Origin: Holophagaceae bacterium
GTDB taxonomy: Bacteria > Acidobacteriota > Holophagae > Holophagales > Holophagaceae
Direction: 5' to 3'
DNA length: 64,000 nucleotides
NCBI GenBank assembly: GCA_046331545.1
Contig: JAXLQR010000002.1
Span: 3,247,080-3,311,079 of the forward strand
The translations under genes were made by a program, and so were the position numbers. Positions within the stretch are counted from its first letter, which is position 1. Every line of letters starts with the position of its first letter. Below the pieces are notes generated by a model. The model did not search any database and was not told the DNA's origin. It saw nothing but the letters and a program-made list of their open reading frames with translations. Positions 3,082-54,434 of this stretch are shown in pieces.

Positions 3082-3792
3082 TCACCTCAGGCGCTCCAGG
3101 AGCTTCAGCAGGGCCTGGGGCACGGGCTTCTCGCACCACAGGGCCTCGGCGAAGTCCGCCTGGATGAGCGAGCCCCAGTGCATGGCGCGCCCTTCGATGC
3201 CCCGGCGGAAGGAGGGGTGGGCGATGCGCACGGCGGGCTGGGCCGGATCCGGGCTGAACTGGCTTCCGAAGGCGTCGAAGGCGGCCATGCGCCGGGCCCA
3301 CGCGGCGCTGACGTCCACCACCAGGTCGGGCCGGTCCGGGTTCTCGCCCCCCACCCAGGCGAGGGCCTCGACGCGCCAGGGCTCGCCTTCGTGGGGATAG
3401 CCCTTCAGGCCGGCGTGGAAGGCGGCCGCGCGCAGCAGGCGGTGGGCCCGGCGATGATCCGGGTGGCGGTCCTCCGGCGCGGGGATCACGAGGACGGTCG
3501 GGCGCAGGGTCCTGAGGGCCGTCATCACCGCGCGCCGGGAAGCCTCCCCCTCGTCGAAGCGCCCGTCGGGGAGGTCGAGGGTGGTGCGGGAGGCGCCGAG
3601 GATCCGGGCGGCCTCCAGGGCCTCGGCGCGGCGGATCTCGGGCGTGCCGCGGCTGCCCAGCTCCCCGCGGGTGAGGTCGAGGATGCCCGCGCGCAGGCCG
3701 CGGTCCGCGGCCAACGCGAGGAGGCCGCCCACGTGCACCTCCACGTCGTCGGGATGGGCGCCGACGGCCAGCAGGTCGAGCATCGCGGTCAT
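3082..3792 (-). CDS. bshB1: PIG-L/LmbE family N-acetylglucosaminyl deacetylase (BshB1-like)
   Basis: MTAMLDLLAVGAHPDDVEVHVGG... (AHPDD motif of the LmbE/PIG-L family), 236 aa. The six-frame ORF extends upstream only because of high GC. Start chosen at the ATG overlapping the upstream gene's stop (ATGA). Confidence 0.7.
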   Translation of the reverse strand: MTAMLDLLAVGAHPDDVEVHVGGLLALAADRGLRAGILDLTRGELGSRGTPEIRRAEALEAARILGASRTTLDLPDGRFDEGEASRRAVMTALRTLRPTVLVIPAPEDRHPDHRRAHRLLRAAAFHAGLKGYPHEGEPWRVEALAWVGGENPDRPDLVVDVSAAWARRMAAFDAFGSQFSPDPAQPAVRIAHPSFRRGIEGRAMHWGSLIQADFAEALWCEKPVPQALLKLLERLR

Positions 3793-4991
3793 GGGGCCTC
3801 CACCAGCAGGGTGCCGCCGCCCTCGGGATGGGTGGCGAGGCGCGCGGCGAGGGCCGCTTCCAGGCGGTCCAGCAGCGCGCCGTCCCGCAGCCAGGAGAGG
3901 CCCGGCAGCACACGCTCCTGGGGCCGACCGAGGGGAAAGAGGGCCTGGCGGAGCTTCTCGGGATCCGTGCCGAAGCGGGCCGCGGCGAGATCCCGGCGGT
4001 GGCGGCGGTCCAGCCGCGCCAGGCGGGCACGGGTGCGCTGGAGTTCGTCCTCCACGCGTTTCAGCAGCGTCGGGCCCCAGGCGGCGGCGCCCGCGGGGTC
4101 GAGGCTGAGGGCCGAGGAGGGAAGGTGGTCGGCGCGGGCGAAGGCGGCCCAGTCGCCGGTGCGGAGGGGATCGAGGTCCGCCGCGTCGAGGTGGGCGCCC
4201 CTGGGCACGAGGGCCGCCGAGGGCCGCGCCACGATCCGGGGCGCCTCCAGGCCCACGCGTTCCCACAGCGGCTCGGCGAGGCGCCAGTAGGCACGCTCGG
4301 CGGGGCCGAGGACCACCGCGGCCGTGCCGGGCAGGAGGCGCTGCTGCATGAGCGGACGCAGGGCGGCGCCGGGGCTGAGCCAGTGGCCGGGAGGGCAGGG
4401 CTCGCCGGGATCGAGGCGGGCGCGGGCGCCGGTGGACGGGTCGAGGCTGAACCAGGCGCCCTGGGTGCGCGGATCCAGGGGCAGGGCCAGGCGGGCGCTC
4501 TCCAGCCTCTCGGCCTGGGCCACCAGGTCCCGCTCCAGGCCCAGGGCCCGCCAGCGCCGGAGATCGTCCTGGATCGCGGCCCTGGCTCCGGGTTCCGTGG
4601 GCGAGAAGGCGCGCACGCCCCGTCGCCACAGGGGCGCGCCGCAGGCGAGGAAGTGGCCACGCAGCGTCGGCTCCGGGGCGCCGGGCACCTCGCCCCAGAG
4701 CGCCTCGGCCTCGGCCTGGTGGTTCGCCGTCCAGGCCAGCCAGCCGGTGGCGGTGCCCAGGGGCGCGGCGAACCGGAAGCGGTGGGGGCGCAGGCGGCCG
4801 CCGGCCCCGAAGCCCACCGTGGCGGCCACCTCCAGGGCGTCATGGTCCTCGTCGGCCATCCAGAACACCGCCTCGCCGCCGAGGCGGTCCGCCTCGGCCT
4901 TGGCGGCGAGGGCCTTCACCACCGAAAGGGCCGGGGTCCACCCCGCGCCGATCTGCTGGCCGGTCACCACGAGGGGGCGGGAGGTCGACAT
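3789..4991 (-). CDS. bshC: BshC-like putative bacillithiol biosynthesis cysteine-adding enzyme (short form)
   Basis: VVTGQQIG...FWMADEDHDALE aligns with the B. subtilis BshC (YllA) motifs VVGGQQAG...FWVAGEDHDLDE. 4 nt overlap with the PIG-L deacetylase gene. 400 aa, lacking the roughly 100 aa N-terminal extension of Firmicute BshC. Confidence 0.55.
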   Translation of the reverse strand: MSTSRPLVVTGQQIGAGWTPALSVVKALAAKAEADRLGGEAVFWMADEDHDALEVAATVGFGAGGRLRPHRFRFAAPLGTATGWLAWTANHQAEAEALWGEVPGAPEPTLRGHFLACGAPLWRRGVRAFSPTEPGARAAIQDDLRRWRALGLERDLVAQAERLESARLALPLDPRTQGAWFSLDPSTGARARLDPGEPCPPGHWLSPGAALRPLMQQRLLPGTAAVVLGPAERAYWRLAEPLWERVGLEAPRIVARPSAALVPRGAHLDAADLDPLRTGDWAAFARADHLPSSALSLDPAGAAAWGPTLLKRVEDELQRTRARLARLDRRHRRDLAAARFGTDPEKLRQALFPLGRPQERVLPGLSWLRDGALLDRLEAALAARLATHPEGGGTLLVEAP

Positions 4992-49660: not shown

Positions 49661-51403
49661 CTACTGCACGTCGCTGACGCGGCCGTTGAGGAAGGTGACC
49701 TTCAGGCTCCCGTAGACGTGGATCTTCTTGGCACCGAGGTCCACGGTGTTCTTCGGGCGGCCCAGGATGGCCTCCACCTCGGCGGGGGTCATGCCGAGGG
49801 TGACGGTGCCCGGGGCCGGGGCCTCGGCGGGGCCCTGGGCGATGACCGCCTGCTCGGCGGCGTTGGCCTCCCGGGCGGCGGCGGCCAGGTCGGCGGCGGC
49901 CTCGGGGTCGGCCTGCAGGGCGGAGGCGTAGGGCGACGGGGTGCTGCCGGCGGCGCCGGCGGGCAGGGCGGGCAGGCCCTCCTTGCCGGAGCCCTCCTGG
50001 AGCTGGGCGAGGCCCTGGTCCACGGTGGCCTGCATGTGGTTCTGCATCTCCTGGAGGTCGGCGACGCGGATGGAGAGGGCGGTGCCCCTGGGGCAGACGG
50101 CATTGCGGCTGGCCATCACCCACACGTCGGCCCACTCGGCGGTGGGGGAGGGCGTCTGGAGGACCTGGAGGACGTCGCCCTCCACCAGGGCGCATTCGTC
50201 GATGCCCACGTGGGCGGTGATGGGCGTGTTCACGAGGAAGACCCGGGGGCCCTTCGCGCTGAAGATGGCGGGGGCCTCCGTGGCGCTCATGGCGCTCTGG
50301 GCGGGGGCCCGCCCGTAGCGCTCCTCCTCCATCCGGGCCTCGTCCATCTGGCGGCGCACTTCGTCGGCGATGGCCTGCTTCACCTCCGGGGTCAGCGGCG
50401 TGGCGGTGCCGTAGGCGACCGGGGGCGCGGCGCTGCTGGCGTTCTGGGCGACGAAGGCGGCCTCCAGGGTGGTGGCGATGAGGAAGTCGGCGAGCCAGAG
50501 GGAGGGGCTGCCGTAGGTGGGATAGGGGGTGAAGTAGCCGCCGTAGTAGCCGTACCAGGGCCGGGCCTCCCAGCCCCAGCGCCAGCGCACCGGGTGGGCC
50601 CAGGGGCGGTAGACCCAGGTGTAGAAGGCCGGCCGGTAGTAGCGGGGCCGCGCGTAGACGGGGTAGGTGAAGGCGCCGTAGGTCCAGGGCCGGTAGAGCC
50701 GGGGATGGGCCACGCCGTTCAGGACGTAGGTCCGCTGCACGAGGGTGACGTTGCGGATGACCACGGGGCGCTGGACGTACCCCGCGCGGCCGGTGGCGTT
50801 GGCGACGATGACCCGGTTGCCGGGCCGGGTGACCTCGACGATGCGGGTGCCGGTGGCGGTGTGGCGGATGACGGCGCCGGCGGGGGTGCGGACCTCGCGG
50901 ATGGCGCCGGCGGGAGTGCGGTGGATCTCGGCGCCCTCCCGGGTGCGCACGACGACGCGGGGCGGCGCGATCCGGGCGGCGGGGGCGGGCGTCGGGGCGG
51001 GCATGGGCCGGGGGACCGGCGCGGGCCGGAGTTCAGGCCGGGGCGTCTCCCGGCGGGGCTCCGGGCGGATCTCAGGCCGGAACTCGGGCCGGGGCTGCGT
51101 CCGGGGCTCGGGCCGGGCGTCGCGGCGCTCGTCCCGGTGCTCCTGGCGCTCCTGGCGGACGTCGCGGCGCTGCTCCTGCCGCTGCTCGTGCCGCTCCTGG
51201 CGGGCCTCCTGCTTCTGCTCCCGCTTCTCCTCCCGCTTCTCCTGCCGGGCCTCCACCTTCCGGGGCTCGGGCCGGTGCTTGTCCTTGTCCTTGTCGTCCC
51301 CGGCGGAGGCGAAGGTCCCGGCGGCGAGGGCCAGGGTCAGGGCGCCGAGGCGGAGGGAGCGCAGGCTCCCGGACGGGATGGGGGCGAGGATGCGCGTGGC
51401 CAT
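49661..51403 (-). CDS. Secreted hypothetical protein with an RE/RQ-rich charged repeat tract, a Pro-rich linker and a Tyr/Trp/Arg-rich domain
   Basis: Signal peptide MATRILAPIPSGSLRSLRLGALTLALAAGTFASAG. The artefactual 1090 aa ORF is trimmed to this start. QEKREEKREQKQEARQERHEQRQEQRRDVRQERQEHRDERRD tract. YRPWTYGAFTYPVYARPRYYRPAFYTWVYRPWAHPVRWRWGWEARPWYGYYGGYFTPYPTYG segment. C-terminal BamE/SmpA-like-looking module. Confidence 0.6.
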   Translation of the reverse strand: MATRILAPIPSGSLRSLRLGALTLALAAGTFASAGDDKDKDKHRPEPRKVEARQEKREEKREQKQEARQERHEQRQEQRRDVRQERQEHRDERRDARPEPRTQPRPEFRPEIRPEPRRETPRPELRPAPVPRPMPAPTPAPAARIAPPRVVVRTREGAEIHRTPAGAIREVRTPAGAVIRHTATGTRIVEVTRPGNRVIVANATGRAGYVQRPVVIRNVTLVQRTYVLNGVAHPRLYRPWTYGAFTYPVYARPRYYRPAFYTWVYRPWAHPVRWRWGWEARPWYGYYGGYFTPYPTYGSPSLWLADFLIATTLEAAFVAQNASSAAPPVAYGTATPLTPEVKQAIADEVRRQMDEARMEEERYGRAPAQSAMSATEAPAIFSAKGPRVFLVNTPITAHVGIDECALVEGDVLQVLQTPSPTAEWADVWVMASRNAVCPRGTALSIRVADLQEMQNHMQATVDQGLAQLQEGSGKEGLPALPAGAAGSTPSPYASALQADPEAAADLAAAAREANAAEQAVIAQGPAEAPAPGTVTLGMTPAEVEAILGRPKNTVDLGAKKIHVYGSLKVTFLNGRVSDVQ

Positions 51404-51492: not shown

Positions 51493-52941
51493 CTAGTACT
51501 GTCCGTAGCGCCCCTTCACGGAGTCGAAGAGCTTTGCGGGGTCGTAGCCGACGCCGTCCTTGAAGACCAGCTCCACCTTCTCGAGGTCCTCGATGGTGGC
51601 GGCGGGGTTGCCGCGCACGACCATGAGGTCGGCGTCGAAGCCCGGGGCGACGGAGCCGATGCGGTGCTCGAGGCCCAGGAACGTCGCGCCGTTGTGGGTG
51701 GCGATGCGGATCGCCTCCACGGGGCTGAAGCCGGCCTCCACGAGGAGCTCCACCTGGCGCCAGTCGCTGATGCCGGGGATGGTGCCGCCGTTGCCGGTGG
51801 GGTCGCAGCCGGCGAGGAGGAGGCCGCCGGCGGCGACGAAGGCGCGCTCGAGGGCCATGGCGCGCTTGAAGATGGCGGTGGGACCGTCCGGCGGCCTCGA
51901 CGCGATGCGGTTGCGGGCATAGAGGAAGGCCTCCCGGGCCTGGGGGCTCAAGACCTCGAGGGCGAGGGGCCGCAGGGGCGGGCGGTTGGGGACCATGTGC
52001 TCGAAGACGGGCAGGGTGGAGGTGACGGCGATATGGTTCGCGATGAGCTTGGCGAAGAGGGCCTTGGCCACGGGGCCCTCGGGGTCCATGGCCATGGGCG
52101 TGGTGCCCAGGGGCGCGCTGGAGGCCTTGTCGGGGACCTTGCCGGGGTCGAGCTGGGTGTTGACGATGAAGCCGTGCTCCAGGTCGTCGATGCCCAGGTC
52201 GGCGGCCTCGTCGTAGGTGACGGAGCTGAGGTGGCCGGTGACCTTGAGGCCCCGGGCGTGGGCGGCCTCGATGGCGGCCTTCAGCTCGGCCCGGGTGATG
52301 TTCATGTAGGCCTTGAAGGAGGTGGCCCCCGCGTCGGCCCAGAAGTTGACGAAGGCCCTGGCGTCGTCGGGGCCCTTCAGCGGGTGCATCTGCATGAAGG
52401 GGCTGCCCGCGCCTTCGAGGTAGGGCGCGGTGACGTGGATGTGGGGCCCCGGCAGCTTCCCGTCGTCCACGAGGCGCTTGAGGTTGAGGTCCGCGTAGGG
52501 CTCCACGCTGCCCGTGGTGCGGATGGTGGTGACGCCCGCCGCGAGGTACAGCCGCGGCGCCGAGAAGGTCATCTGCGGCACCAGCAGCGGCGCATCCGAC
52601 GACGCGTCCGCCTTCATGTTCGGCCGCGCGATGTGGAAGAGGTGGTCGTGCATCCCCACCAGCCCCGGCAACACCGTCGCGCCGCGCAGGTCCAGCACCG
52701 TCTGGTTGGGAGCCGCAGCCACGTCCGCGCCTGGCGAGATGGAGGCGATCTTCCCTCCCTCGAGGACCACATTGCGGTCCTCCATCGGAGGATTGCCCAG
52801 GCCGTCGATCACGCGCACGTGGGTGAGCACCACCCGGGGGGAATCGATCTTGATGTAGCGGGCGACGTCGGGGGAGGGTTGGGCTAGGAGGGCGCCGGAC
52901 AGTAGAGATGAAATCAAAAATGAACGAAGACAATATTTCAT
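51493..52941 (-). CDS. Secreted amidohydrolase family protein (metal-dependent hydrolase)
   Basis: Signal peptide. PGLVGMHDHL metal-binding HxH motif. Amidohydro fold through the C-terminus. 482 aa. The first 12 codons are AT-rich. Confidence 0.8.
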   Translation of the reverse strand: MKYCLRSFLISSLLSGALLAQPSPDVARYIKIDSPRVVLTHVRVIDGLGNPPMEDRNVVLEGGKIASISPGADVAAAPNQTVLDLRGATVLPGLVGMHDHLFHIARPNMKADASSDAPLLVPQMTFSAPRLYLAAGVTTIRTTGSVEPYADLNLKRLVDDGKLPGPHIHVTAPYLEGAGSPFMQMHPLKGPDDARAFVNFWADAGATSFKAYMNITRAELKAAIEAAHARGLKVTGHLSSVTYDEAADLGIDDLEHGFIVNTQLDPGKVPDKASSAPLGTTPMAMDPEGPVAKALFAKLIANHIAVTSTLPVFEHMVPNRPPLRPLALEVLSPQAREAFLYARNRIASRPPDGPTAIFKRAMALERAFVAAGGLLLAGCDPTGNGGTIPGISDWRQVELLVEAGFSPVEAIRIATHNGATFLGLEHRIGSVAPGFDADLMVVRGNPAATIEDLEKVELVFKDGVGYDPAKLFDSVKGRYGQY

Positions 52942-54434
52942 CTATACTCCGTTGAAAGAAATTAGCTTAGGGGTATTAGTTTGATATATGACATATTCAT
53001 CTTTAAATTGTCAGTAATAATTCAATGGGATTATCTTGGCCAATATGAATTCCTAACCCCTCAAATAAAAGAATTAAAATAGGGACGAGTGTTGAGGCCG
53101 GAAATGGAATTATCTCTTCCGAATTAGATTTGAAATAATCTTGCATTTCTAGAGGTAAAAGATATGACTTCTTTATATGAGTTGGGATCTGCAATGAATT
53201 CTCGAGAAGTATTGGAATCCCGTATTTTTTGCAGTGCTCAAAATATTGTGGCTTATCAATATACGGACATTTGCCCCCTGTGTTTGTTGTTTTAACAGCA
53301 CAAAGTAAGTCTCTATGGTCCATCGTTCTTTTTTTAATATCAATTATGGTATTTAGGAAGCAGGAAAGGATGACTCCTACTTGCGTTAGATCTAATATTT
53401 TAAGATCTTCGCTCTTTTTAATATCCACCATTGTTATAAGTTCTTTTTTGTGTTTGAATCTAGGATCCTTCATGTACCCATCGATCGAGAAACTATTAAT
53501 GGGTATTGAGATTTTAAATCTCCCATTATGCCAAAAGCGCAGCGTTGGGAGGAAGTAGTAAAAGTGGTTTTCTTGGACATACCTAGCTGTGAACCCATAT
53601 TTAGATGGGAAAACATGGTCAAAGTTGAGGGAGAACGGAGTCTTTCTCTCGCAACAAATAGTTTTGAAGTCATCAATCTTTATTTGATTGAGACTGCTTT
53701 CATCCGAGCTTTGTGGGAGAAGATAGATGTGTAAAATCGAGTCTTCTGATTGCTTTTTATGCAAATGTGGGGAATCATCAATAAATTGCTTTAATAGTGT
53801 ATCGGCGCTTGCACTTTTATCGAACAGCCTGTCGATTGCGTACCTGTTTGTTTCGGCCTCCGGCTTCGAGTGATCCGCAGTTCTTTTATATATTCGCCCA
53901 GATGAGTGCACATAGGGCGGTTCCTCTCCTTCACTTATTTTAACGATCAATATGTATTTATCCGCATCTAATTCAATCTCAGCGCATGGGCCTTTAATAG
54001 TCTTTGTTTCAAAATATACCGTAGGGAATGAATGAGCACTTGAAGCTTCTCTAAGTCGAGTGAGCAACGTGTCTAAAACTTCTCCGTTGATCCCTATAAA
54101 TTTATCAGCGGCATGAGTCGCGGTGTGTTCTTTGATTCCAAAAAAAATCCATCCGCCATAAGTGTTGGCGAAAGATGTTAAATGTTTGGCGATATCTTTA
54201 AGGTCAATCAGATCTTGCTTGTAATCAATGTACCAACCTTCTGAGACCTCTTTCAAGACATGCAAATCCCTGGATTCTACCTCGTGCAAGGGTTTTCGGA
54301 AGGGATCCAGCATTGGTGTATCTATTGAGAATTTAAGATAACCCCATTCATATTGTTATAGATAGCTTGATTAGATCGGGGGATTTGAATGTCTTGCGTC
54401 GGACAATCATGGCGAATGTGTTTGGCTCGTCCAT
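52905..54434. mobile_element. AT-rich horizontally acquired island (about 1.5 kb, roughly 35% GC against roughly 70% in the flanks)
   Basis: Abrupt composition change at about 52905 and at the nrdJ stop (54435). A single gene inside. No integrase, tRNA or clear direct repeats found. Confidence 0.7.
53003..54313 (-). CDS. AlbA_2 / Schlafen-like domain protein with an unknown C-terminal region (candidate defence or toxin gene)
   Basis: 436 aa. N-terminal ESRDLHVLKEVSEGWYIDY...IAKHLTSFANTYGGWIFFGIKEH fits the AlbA_2 (divergent AAA / Slfn-box) consensus E..lEfK......iak.isAfANt.GG.l..Gv.d. Low-GC codon usage unlike every other gene in the window. Confidence 0.65.
   Translation of the reverse strand: MLDPFRKPLHEVESRDLHVLKEVSEGWYIDYKQDLIDLKDIAKHLTSFANTYGGWIFFGIKEHTATHAADKFIGINGEVLDTLLTRLREASSAHSFPTVYFETKTIKGPCAEIELDADKYILIVKISEGEEPPYVHSSGRIYKRTADHSKPEAETNRYAIDRLFDKSASADTLLKQFIDDSPHLHKKQSEDSILHIYLLPQSSDESSLNQIKIDDFKTICCERKTPFSLNFDHVFPSKYGFTARYVQENHFYYFLPTLRFWHNGRFKISIPINSFSIDGYMKDPRFKHKKELITMVDIKKSEDLKILDLTQVGVILSCFLNTIIDIKKRTMDHRDLLCAVKTTNTGGKCPYIDKPQYFEHCKKYGIPILLENSLQIPTHIKKSYLLPLEMQDYFKSNSEEIIPFPASTLVPILILLFEGLGIHIGQDNPIELLLTI

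What the first reader, a model, noticed from the sequence alone, without database searches (positions are those of the whole stretch)
52905..54434. AT-rich single-gene island encoding an AlbA_2/Schlafen-like protein with a novel C-terminal region
Every other gene in 64 kb has about 70% GC and extreme GC3. This 1.5 kb block between nrdJ and a secreted amidohydrolase is AT-rich, so it is almost certainly horizontally acquired. Its one gene (53003..54313, minus strand, 436 aa) opens with a good match to the AlbA_2 (Slfn-box) domain, ESRDLHVLKEVSEGW...IAKHLTSFANTYGGWIFFGIKEH. The remaining roughly 300 residues are Cys-containing (CCERK; KCPYIDKPQYFEHC) and match nothing I recognise. From established knowledge, the AlbA_2/Schlafen fold is the tRNA/rRNA endoribonuclease core of eukaryotic Schlafens, and AlbA_2 domains recur in prokaryotic defence islands. 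My inference is that this is a standalone abortive-infection-type nuclease or toxin with an uncharacterised effector or sensor half. No integrase, tRNA or clean att repeat is visible. It may be a remnant cargo gene, or it may have been inserted by a non-site-specific route.
Basis: partly seen in the sequence, partly recalled or inferred. Interest (0 to 1): 0.85.

Follow-up and report, generated by a model that had tools for sequence, protein, structure and literature searches.

The report
Schlafen-type nuclease defence gene island
A 1.5-kb foreign, AT-rich insert in a very GC-rich Holophagaceae genome carries one intact gene for a bacterial Schlafen-type RNA-cutting enzyme fused to an uncharacterised probable sensor domain; it is an untested member of a class of anti-phage defence genes first described in 2025-2026.

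Summary

The C-terminal 280 residues are a real conserved domain. A profile finds 764 clusters at 50% identity, and the 150 best all have the same ~450-aa layout. It has no Pfam, PDB-sequence or strong fold match, only weak TBP-like hits.

A sister Holophagaceae MAG has ThsB-TIR, TIR and SLOG genes in the same nrdJ/amidohydrolase slot, so this is a variable, defence-type hotspot. Homologs sit near AriA/OLD-like, PD-T4-6-like, KAP-NTPase, BrxR and toxin-antitoxin genes and a CRISPR array, or as lone AT-rich islands.

The gene fits the prokaryotic Schlafen (pSlfn) nuclease-plus-sensor defence class (Nat Microbiol 2026). I rate it a new member of a known kind. Defence activity, RNA target and trigger are all untested.

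The parts
52879..54434 (.). Variable, AT-rich cargo segment (38% GC) in the slot between nrdJ and the amidohydrolase
   Evidence: GC profile. Homology to the sister MAG L008 ends at the nrdJ stop codon and resumes at about 52878. L008 carries a different 3.2-kb cargo in the same slot.
53003..54313 (-). pSlfn-type gene, 436 aa plus stop codon: N-terminal Schlafen/AlbA_2 nuclease domain joined to a C-terminal uncharacterised domain
   Evidence: ORF. An identical protein is deposited from a Holophagaceae MAG. It aligns over nearly its full length with about 20 relatives. AlphaFold2 model has mean pLDDT 86.5 and pTM 0.78.
53861..54238 (-). Schlafen/AlbA_2 domain (residues 26-151), the predicted endoribonuclease effector
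54218..54241 (-). Catalytic motif Ex4(E/D)xK, read as E25-G-W-Y-I-D30-Y-K32
   Evidence: Translation gives EGWYIDYK. E25 is invariant and K32 at least 90% conserved. The motif is present in 144 of 146 full-length family members. It was defined as catalytic for SLFN11 and pSlfns in PMC13056530, where the RorSlfn5 E15A/D20A mutant is dead.
53006..53848 (-). C-terminal domain (residues 156-436): a linker helix followed by two alpha/beta units, the first with beta-alpha-beta4-alpha order. Predicted sensor or regulatory module.
54314..54434 (-). 121-nt spacer between the nrdJ stop codon and the slfn start codon, holding the leader and presumably a promoter
   Evidence: Sequence. No convincing sigma-70-type site on the minus strand upstream of the ATG. 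No Rfam match. An inverted repeat at 54375-54396 pairs with 54254-54275, but the fold is not significant (z = -1.56).
52900..52950 (-). Shine-Dalgarno site (GGAG, 52947-52950), ATG (52939-52941) and the first 14 codons (MKYCLRSFLISSLL) of the amidohydrolase, all encoded in the AT-rich cargo DNA. This makes a chimeric signal peptide.
   Evidence: Sequence and 30-nt GC windows. Alignment with L008, where the signal peptide (MHRPLASLALALFSL...) and its upstream region are GC-rich.

Best explanation
The island carries a single-gene anti-phage system of the prokaryotic Schlafen (pSlfn) class.

The N-terminal Schlafen/AlbA_2 domain is a metal-dependent endoribonuclease whose active site is E25, D30 and K32. 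The C-terminal ~280-residue alpha/beta domain, which evolves faster, holds the nuclease inactive until it recognises a phage-derived cue, either a protein or a nucleic acid. Once triggered, the nuclease cuts tRNAs of the host and possibly of the phage. Translation stops and phage yield falls, which amounts to an abortive-infection outcome.

The gene arrived by horizontal transfer into a variable slot between nrdJ and an amidohydrolase. Related genomes fill this slot with other defence cargo. The arrival overwrote the promoter and the first 14 codons of the amidohydrolase.

- **Shown:** the foreign composition, the domain, the motif, the fold, the fixed family architecture, the variable slot, and the neighbourhoods of homologs.
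- **Inferred by homology:** RNase activity, tRNA as the target, the sensor role of the C-terminal domain, and the defence phenotype.
For: **Composition:** GC 0.38 against 0.725, GC3 0.39 against 0.94-0.98.

**Nuclease domain:**
- PF04326, E = 4.3e-16.
- The Ex4(E/D)xK motif is present and kept in 144 of 146 full-length relatives.

**C-terminal domain:**
- Among the 150 best of 764 clusters it occurs only behind this nuclease domain.
- All 10 sampled members have SLFN_AlbA_2 as their only Pfam domain.
- The nuclease domain is conserved (48.5% pairwise identity) and the C-terminal region variable (23.9%). The sensor of pSlfn5 shows the same pattern (PMC13056530).

**Genomic setting:**
- The sister MAG L008 has ThsB-TIR (PADLOC E = 1.6e-62), a TIR_2 protein and a SLOG protein in the same slot.
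- Homolog neighbours include an AriA/OLD-like ATPase (1e-58) and a PD-T4-6-like kinase (9e-45) in L001, and a QatA/PifA-like KAP NTPase, HNH, resolvase and integrase in L007.
- Others are BrxR in L171, ParE and Phd/PIN in L168 and L172, and DUF927 in L173.
- A 7-repeat CRISPR array and a C-protein/CapH-like HTH lie next to the Tistrella copy.

**Literature:** pSlfn fusions give phage defence, and RorSlfn5 is a trigger-activated tRNase (PMC13056530). An Enterococcus Schlafen whose C-terminus has no known domain gives abortive-infection defence (PMC13552941).
Against: - Neither this protein nor any member of its subfamily has been tested.
- PADLOC v2 (2023) and NCBIfam give no hit.
- None of the ten neighbouring window genes scanned against Pfam belongs to a family that points to defence; they were not run against PADLOC.
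- At least 2 of 12 homolog contexts are lone genes among housekeeping genes (L003 and L005/L006).
- In the published survey, 30% of pSlfn genes had no defence neighbour, and only 2 of 7 tested systems protected E. coli (PMC13056530).
- With GC3 of 0.39 in a host near 0.95, the gene may be poorly expressed.
- No promoter was identified.
- No match in the phage or plasmid collections.
Confidence: 0.6

Rival explanations
1. The protein is a toxin or stress-responsive RNase that is not dedicated to phage defence. It could be an addiction-type selfish gene that persists because losing it is harmful, or an RNase that acts in dormancy or inter-bacterial conflict.
For: Homologs sit beside ParE, Phd/PIN, ParA and HTH genes typical of toxin-antitoxin and mobile-element regions. 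The gene often travels alone as a 1.5-kb cassette. The catalytic motif is intact.
Against: No conserved partner or antitoxin gene accompanies the family across 12 contexts. The window has no small adjacent ORF. Every experimentally tested Schlafen fusion so far works in antiviral defence (PMC13056530, PMC13552941, PMC13462974).
Confidence: 0.15
2. The protein is a DNA-binding or transcriptional regulator, as the database names suggest ('AlbA family DNA-binding domain-containing protein', 'helix-turn-helix domain-containing protein', 'ATP-binding protein').
Confidence: 0.07
3. The gene is recently acquired but silent or non-functional cargo. It is intact only because it is young, and it is effectively unexpressed in this 72%-GC host because of codon mismatch or xenogeneic silencing.
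For: GC3 is 0.39 against about 0.95 for the host. No recognisable promoter or strong ribosome-binding site lies upstream. The protein is identical to a single MAG entry only.
Against: The ORF is full length and retains every invariant family residue. The downstream amidohydrolase now depends on cargo DNA for its Shine-Dalgarno site and start codon, which implies transcription through the island. The same unameliorated state occurs independently in Tistrella and in L003, so it is typical of the family and not a sign of decay.
Confidence: 0.12
4. The AT-rich block is an assembly or binning chimera and is not really part of this genome.
For: The source is a metagenome-assembled genome, and the composition jump is extreme.
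Against: Both flanks are collinear with a sister MAG (88% and 87% DNA identity). The block lies inside a 3.48-Mb contig. The amidohydrolase reading frame runs in frame across the junction. Analogous single-gene AT-rich islands occur in the complete genomes of Tistrella and Microbulbifer.
Confidence: 0.02

Closest known systems
Prokaryotic Schlafen nucleases (pSlfn1-55 and unannotated fusions), especially RorSlfn5 (Perez Taboada et al., Nat Microbiol 2026, PMC13056530)
   Same: A single polypeptide with an N-terminal PF04326 Schlafen domain carrying Ex4(E/D)xK (E25/D30 here, E15/D20 in RorSlfn5). A C-terminal non-catalytic domain evolves faster than the nuclease. The size is about 50 kDa against 43 kDa. 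The gene stands alone in a variable or defence locus.
   Different: The C-terminal domain is not Ig-like. It is a ~280-residue two-unit alpha/beta domain with no Pfam or PDB match. It may belong to the paper's 'TBP-like' (1.5%) or 'unannotated' (17.2%) groups, but the supplementary tables could not be read. The host is an acidobacterium. Trigger, target and phenotype are untested.
Enterococcus Schlafen defence protein whose C-terminus lacks known domains (PLoS Biol 2026, PMC13552941)
   Same: A Schlafen domain plus an unannotated C-terminal region. A single gene that gives broad abortive-infection defence.
   Different: Its sequence could not be retrieved here, so homology of the C-terminal regions is untested. 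It was found next to small serine recombinases, and none lies near the window gene.
Eukaryotic Schlafens (SLFN11, SLFN13, SLFN12, SLFN5) and SAMD9
COG2865-type AlbA_2 proteins (AlbA_2 + HATPase_c_4 + winged helix, e.g. DIP2311, PDB 3lmm; 'HisKinase' and 'HisKinase-HTH' pSlfn classes)
   Different: No HATPase_c_4 or HTH domain is present. The C-terminal domain is unrelated.
Chromosomal defence hotspots, where variable cargo sits between conserved core genes
   Same: The same pair of core genes (nrdJ and the amidohydrolase) brackets unrelated low-GC cargo in two related genomes: pSlfn in one, ThsB-TIR/TIR/SLOG in the other. There is no integrase.
   Different: Only two genomes could be compared, so the diversity at this slot is unknown. 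Here the cargo also overwrote the 5' end of a flanking gene.

Membership tests
Prokaryotic Schlafen (pSlfn) defence nucleases | Full-length Schlafen/AlbA_2 domain (PF04326, more than 100 aa) | tested here: met
   E = 4.3e-16, 59.9 bits against a cut-off of 25.3, residues 26-151, profile positions 2-116 of 118.
Prokaryotic Schlafen (pSlfn) defence nucleases | Catalytic Ex4(E/D)xK motif | tested here: met
   E25-GWYI-D30-Y-K32. E25 is invariant. The motif is in 144 of 146 full-length relatives.
Prokaryotic Schlafen (pSlfn) defence nucleases | Schlafen nuclease fold | tested here: met
Prokaryotic Schlafen (pSlfn) defence nucleases | Fusion to an accessory (sensor) domain | tested here: met
   A 280-aa C-terminal domain, confidently modelled and conserved in 764 clusters, with a fixed layout in the 150 best. 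Its sensor role is inferred.
Prokaryotic Schlafen (pSlfn) defence nucleases | Located with known defence genes or in a defence hotspot | tested here: inconclusive
   None of the ten neighbouring window genes scanned against Pfam belongs to a family that points to defence (PADLOC was not run on them). The same slot in sister MAG L008 holds ThsB-TIR and TIR genes. Known defence genes or a CRISPR array lie next to the homologs in L001, L002, L007 and L171, and toxin-antitoxin or mobile-element genes next to those in L168, L169, L172 and L173. The sample is too small for statistics.
Prokaryotic Schlafen (pSlfn) defence nucleases | Phage-triggered tRNA cleavage and reduced phage plating | not testable with these tools
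   Needs phage challenge, toxicity assays and tRNA cleavage assays.
COG2865-type AlbA_2 regulators / 'ATP-binding protein' (AlbA_2 + HATPase_c_4 + HTH) | HATPase_c_4 (GHKL-like) domain and C-terminal winged helix | tested here: not met
   Pfam finds only PF04326 in this protein and in 10 relatives. No Pfam family recurs in 17 C-terminal halves.
Eukaryotic-type Schlafen core | Two Schlafen lobes (N-lobe plus C-lobe) forming a horseshoe, followed by a linker or helicase | tested here: not met
Type II toxin-antitoxin module | A conserved adjacent antitoxin gene | tested here: not met
   The window has no small partner ORF. Neighbours differ in all 12 homolog contexts. Only L002, L169 and L173 have a nearby HTH gene.
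Integrase-borne genomic island or prophage | Integrase or recombinase, att direct repeats, tRNA or gene-end target | tested here: not met
   No tRNA in the window, no flanking direct repeat, no integrase among the ten neighbouring genes scanned. One homolog, L174, is flanked by a 144-nt duplication of the gatB 3' end.

The most novel reading that the evidence does not exclude
The conserved ~280-residue C-terminal module is a new type of phage sensor. It is a two-unit, distantly TBP-like alpha/beta domain found only behind this Schlafen nuclease, and it would recognise a phage cue different from the tail-assembly chaperone sensed by pSlfn5. It would define an untested pSlfn subclass of at least 600 clusters at 50% identity. 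This subclass spreads as a ~1.5-kb, integrase-less, persistently AT-rich single-gene cassette that lands at the ends of core genes and can rewrite them. Examples are the new signal-peptide start here and the gatB 3' end duplication in L174.
Probability: 0.35. Interest if true: 0.55.

Novelty: new member of a known kind. Interest (0 to 1): 0.4.

Why it matters
If it is active, this gene would extend Schlafen-based tRNA-targeting immunity to Acidobacteriota. It would also add a sizeable, untested subfamily whose sensor domain has no known relatives. That makes it a good candidate for finding a new phage trigger and for asking how different sensors switch on the same nuclease.

The locus also gives a clean natural example of a chromosomal slot, nrdJ/amidohydrolase, where unrelated defence cargoes replace one another without an integrase. 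In this case the exchange also rewired the start of a neighbouring host gene.

Practically, the public names for these proteins ('ATP-binding protein', 'helix-turn-helix domain-containing protein') are misleading and should be corrected.

Tried and rejected
- **Cys residues as a metal-binding or zinc-finger motif (CCERK; KCPYIDKPQYFEHC).** Rejected. None of these Cys columns is conserved.
- **Membership of a known PADLOC, NCBIfam or PHROG family.** No PADLOC or NCBIfam hit. The one PHROG hit ('DNA helicase', 6.9e-8) covers only the AlbA_2 part.
- **Sequence-level identification of the C-terminal domain.** Pfam scans of 17 members, a profile search of PDB sequences and a Foldseek search of viral structures all gave nothing significant.
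- **Family on phages or plasmids.** tblastn found no match in either collection.
- **More copies of the nrdJ/amidohydrolase junction.** The metagenome scan found no relative above 67% identity. Only L008 has nrdJ adjacent.
- **Profile search through the word-indexed protein database.** Only 2 hits, limited by the index. Cluster look-ups gave no organism names.
- **AFDB Foldseek search.** The library was unavailable.
- **A regulatory RNA structure around the slfn start codon (inverted repeat 54254-54275 / 54375-54396).** The fold has z = -1.56, not significant. No Rfam family matches in the island.
- **Remnant of the native amidohydrolase 5' end on the far side of the cargo.** None found by inspecting 54314-54434.
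- **Supplementary tables of the two key papers.** Not held as text. The assigned pSlfn class and the Enterococcus protein sequence could therefore not be checked.
Full report
**1. The observation**

A sliding-window profile shows GC falling from about 0.70 to 0.33-0.43 between roughly 52900 and 54440. The flagged block, 52905-54434, has GC 0.380 and the rest of the window 0.725. No 500-nt window elsewhere in the 64 kb falls below 0.632.

The only long ORF in the block is 53003..54313 on the minus strand (436 aa). Its GC3 is 0.389. The two neighbours have 0.942 and 0.978. Pfam identifies those neighbours as a class II B12-dependent ribonucleotide reductase (Ribonuc_red_lgC, Ribonuc_red_2_N, TSCPD) and an Amidohydro_1 protein. 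The other genes scanned nearby are housekeeping genes (a HisRS-like gene, HisF, a methyltransferase, a dienelactone hydrolase, DUF2400), and none is an integrase. The window has no tRNA, and the block has no flanking direct repeat.

**2. The protein**

Residues 26-151 match Pfam SLFN_AlbA_2 at E = 4.3e-16. PADLOC v2 and NCBIfam give nothing. The one PHROG hit covers only the AlbA_2 part.

An identical protein is deposited from a Holophagaceae MAG on a 3.48-Mb contig, under the name 'ATP-binding protein'. About 25 relatives at 25-36% identity align over nearly the full length.

The alignment shows a strongly conserved N-terminal domain, with motifs EGWYxDYK, AKHLSAFANxYGGW and HSSGRIYRR. The C-terminal half is more variable.

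The sequence E25-GWYI-D30-Y-K32 (window 54218-54241) is an exact instance of the Ex4(E/D)xK motif. Perez Taboada et al. define that motif as the catalytic site of SLFN11 and of prokaryotic Schlafens (PMC13056530). It is present in 144 of 146 full-length family members, and the two exceptions are N-terminally truncated.

**3. Structure**

I modelled the C-terminal half (residues 156-436) on its own (pLDDT 86.2, pTM 0.87). It has a long linker helix, then a beta-alpha-beta4-alpha unit, then a second alpha/beta unit.

Foldseek against viral models finds nothing significant, and its weak top hits are again TBP/TFIID. No Pfam family recurs among 17 C-terminal halves, and the profile finds no PDB sequence.

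**4. The family**

A profile of the C-terminal half alone, searched against 1.84 billion representatives, finds 764 clusters at E of 1e-3 or better, 606 at 1e-10 and 303 at 1e-30. In the 150 best hits the domain begins at about residue 157-163 of a ~450-aa protein; the shorter proteins appear to be fragments, and a few longer ones carry an N-terminal extension. Ten sampled members all carry SLFN_AlbA_2 as their only Pfam domain.

So the C-terminal domain is not unique to this gene. As far as the sample shows, it occurs only behind this nuclease, in a fixed two-domain layout.

Mean pairwise identity is 48.5% in the nuclease domain and 23.9% in the C-terminal region. pSlfn5, where the variable domain is the phage sensor, shows the same contrast.

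**5. The locus is a variable slot**

A related Holophagaceae MAG (L008; amidohydrolase 85% identical, nrdJ 92%) has the same two flanking genes. DNA homology stops exactly at the nrdJ stop codon. It resumes at the codons for the mature N-terminus of the amidohydrolase, PSPDVARY, at window position ~52878.

Between these points L008 has a different, 3.2-kb, 45-55%-GC insert encoding three proteins:
- a ThsB-type TIR protein (Pfam 5e-23, PADLOC ThsB 1.6e-62)
- a 440-aa TIR_2 protein (PADLOC ThsB 3.5e-23)
- a SLOG cluster-3 protein

Two related genomes therefore carry unrelated foreign cargo in the same slot, and one of those cargoes is recognisably defensive.

In the window, the cargo also supplies the Shine-Dalgarno site (GGAG), the ATG and the first 14 codons of the amidohydrolase signal peptide. 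L008 has GC-rich native sequence there. The amidohydrolase probably now depends on transcription through the island.

**6. Contexts of homologs (12 distinct places)**

| Locus | Context |
|---|---|
| L001 (Microbulbifer) | Follows an AriA/OLD-like ATPase (1e-58) and a PD-T4-6-like kinase (9e-45) |
| L002 (Tistrella) | 29 bp after a C-protein/CapH-like HTH; 0.8 kb from a 7-repeat CRISPR-type array |
| L007 | QatA/PifA-like KAP NTPase, HNH, resolvase, integrase |
| L171 | DUF3644 and BrxR |
| L168, L172 | ParE and Phd/PIN modules |
| L169 | ParA and HTH_3 |
| L173 | HTH_3 and DUF927 |
| L170 | Small unknown genes |
| L003, L005/L006 | Lone genes among housekeeping genes |
| L174 | Sits just after gatB; flanked by a 144-nt, 90%-identical duplication of the gatB 3' end, with no integrase between the copies |

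No partner gene is conserved across these contexts. The gene is AT-rich whatever the host: 0.38 against 0.69 in Tistrella, 0.36 against 0.67 in L003, and lower than the rest of the contig in L168-L171. No copy was found in the phage or plasmid collections.

**7. Mechanism**

The best-supported reading is a single-gene sensor-effector defence protein of the pSlfn class. The C-terminal domain would keep the Schlafen RNase off until it binds a phage cue. Activation would then lead to tRNA cleavage, translational arrest and reduced phage yield.

The domain, motif, fold, architecture, conservation pattern and genomic setting are shown here. RNase activity, the tRNA target, the sensor role and the phenotype are inferred from three sources:
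- RorSlfn5, whose Ig-like sensor detects the T5 tail-assembly chaperone and whose nuclease cuts the anticodon arm
- the Enterococcus Schlafen whose C-terminus lacks any known domain
- the mammalian Schlafens SLFN11/13

I put the confidence at about 0.6 for defence and about 0.85 for membership of the pSlfn structural class.

The rivals are a non-defence toxin (0.15), silent recent cargo (0.12), a DNA-binding regulator as the database names imply (0.07) and an assembly chimera (0.02).

**8. Comparison and novelty**

The 2026 survey lists 5,930 pSlfns in 55 architectures. It includes a 'TBP-like' class (1.5%) and 1,020 proteins (17.2%, 558 clusters) with unannotated fusion domains. This family very likely falls into one of those two groups. 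I could not check, because the supplementary tables are not held as text.

The finding is therefore a new, untested member of a known kind.

What remains of interest:
- the uncharacterised sensor domain and the size of its family
- the nrdJ/amidohydrolase hotspot with alternative cargo
- the rewritten 5' end of the host gene
- the persistent AT-richness of these cassettes in GC-rich hosts

Interest is 0.4.

Noticed in passing
L008:4845-8025: In the sister Holophagaceae MAG, the same nrdJ/amidohydrolase slot holds a three-gene, lower-GC cassette. It encodes a ThsB-type TIR protein (165 aa), a 440-aa protein with a central TIR_2 domain, and a SLOG cluster-3 protein (276 aa) with no PADLOC match. 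This could be a Thoeris-like TIR-plus-SLOG system whose SLOG protein reads a TIR-made signal.
   Followed up: partly
window 52900-52950 (minus strand): The amidohydrolase's Shine-Dalgarno site (GGAG), its ATG and its first 14 codons (MKYCLRSFLISSLL) are encoded by the foreign AT-rich DNA. The insertion replaced the native promoter and the start of the signal peptide and created a chimeric but still signal-peptide-like N-terminus.
   Followed up: partly
L174:1998-2141 and 3714-3857: A homologous slfn cassette sits directly after gatB. It is flanked by a 144-nt direct duplication (90% identical) of the gatB 3' end, which leaves a 74-aa GatB fragment downstream. This is an att-like footprint with no integrase between the copies. 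It suggests mobilisation in trans or decay of a larger element.
   Followed up: partly
L002:8748-9182: A CRISPR-type array lies about 0.8 kb upstream of the Tistrella slfn homolog and its HTH gene. It has 7 copies of GTCGCACCCTTGCGGGTGCGTGGATTGAAAC with a 64-68 nt period and unique spacers. None of the Pfam families listed for the called genes in the 21-kb locus is a Cas family, and Rfam gave no hit.
   Followed up: partly
L001-L007, L168-L171 (gene against flanks): Family members have 34-44% GC and low GC3 whatever the host GC (hosts range from 40% to 72%). In three independent high-GC hosts they form sharp single-gene AT-rich islands. This could reflect rapid turnover. It could also reflect selection for AT-richness, for example silencing or throttled translation of a toxic nuclease.
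   Followed up: partly
window 54254-54275 and 54375-54396: A 22-nt inverted repeat (86% complementary) brackets the slfn ribosome-binding region and start codon, and it forms in the minimum-free-energy fold. The fold is not better than shuffled controls (z = -1.56), so a regulatory role is unsupported.
   Followed up: yes
P0025 (L005/L006, spore-forming Firmicute context): The most divergent family member reads EGYYLQFM where the others have Ex4(E/D)xK. It lacks the second acidic residue and the lysine, so it may be a catalytically inactive or repurposed copy. It sits alone between a peptidase M20 gene and pfk.
   Followed up: no
window 49661-51400 (minus strand): The gene downstream of the amidohydrolase encodes a protein of about 579 aa with a signal-peptide-like start. 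It has a long, highly charged Arg/Glu/Lys/Gln-rich low-complexity stretch (…EARQEKREEKREQKQEARQERHEQRQEQRRDVRQERQEHRDERRD…) and no Pfam match.
   Followed up: no
P0001, P0004, P0022 (database names): Public annotations call these proteins 'ATP-binding protein' or 'helix-turn-helix domain-containing protein'. No ATPase or HTH domain is detectable in them, so the names appear to be carried over from COG2865-type AlbA_2 proteins.
   Followed up: yes
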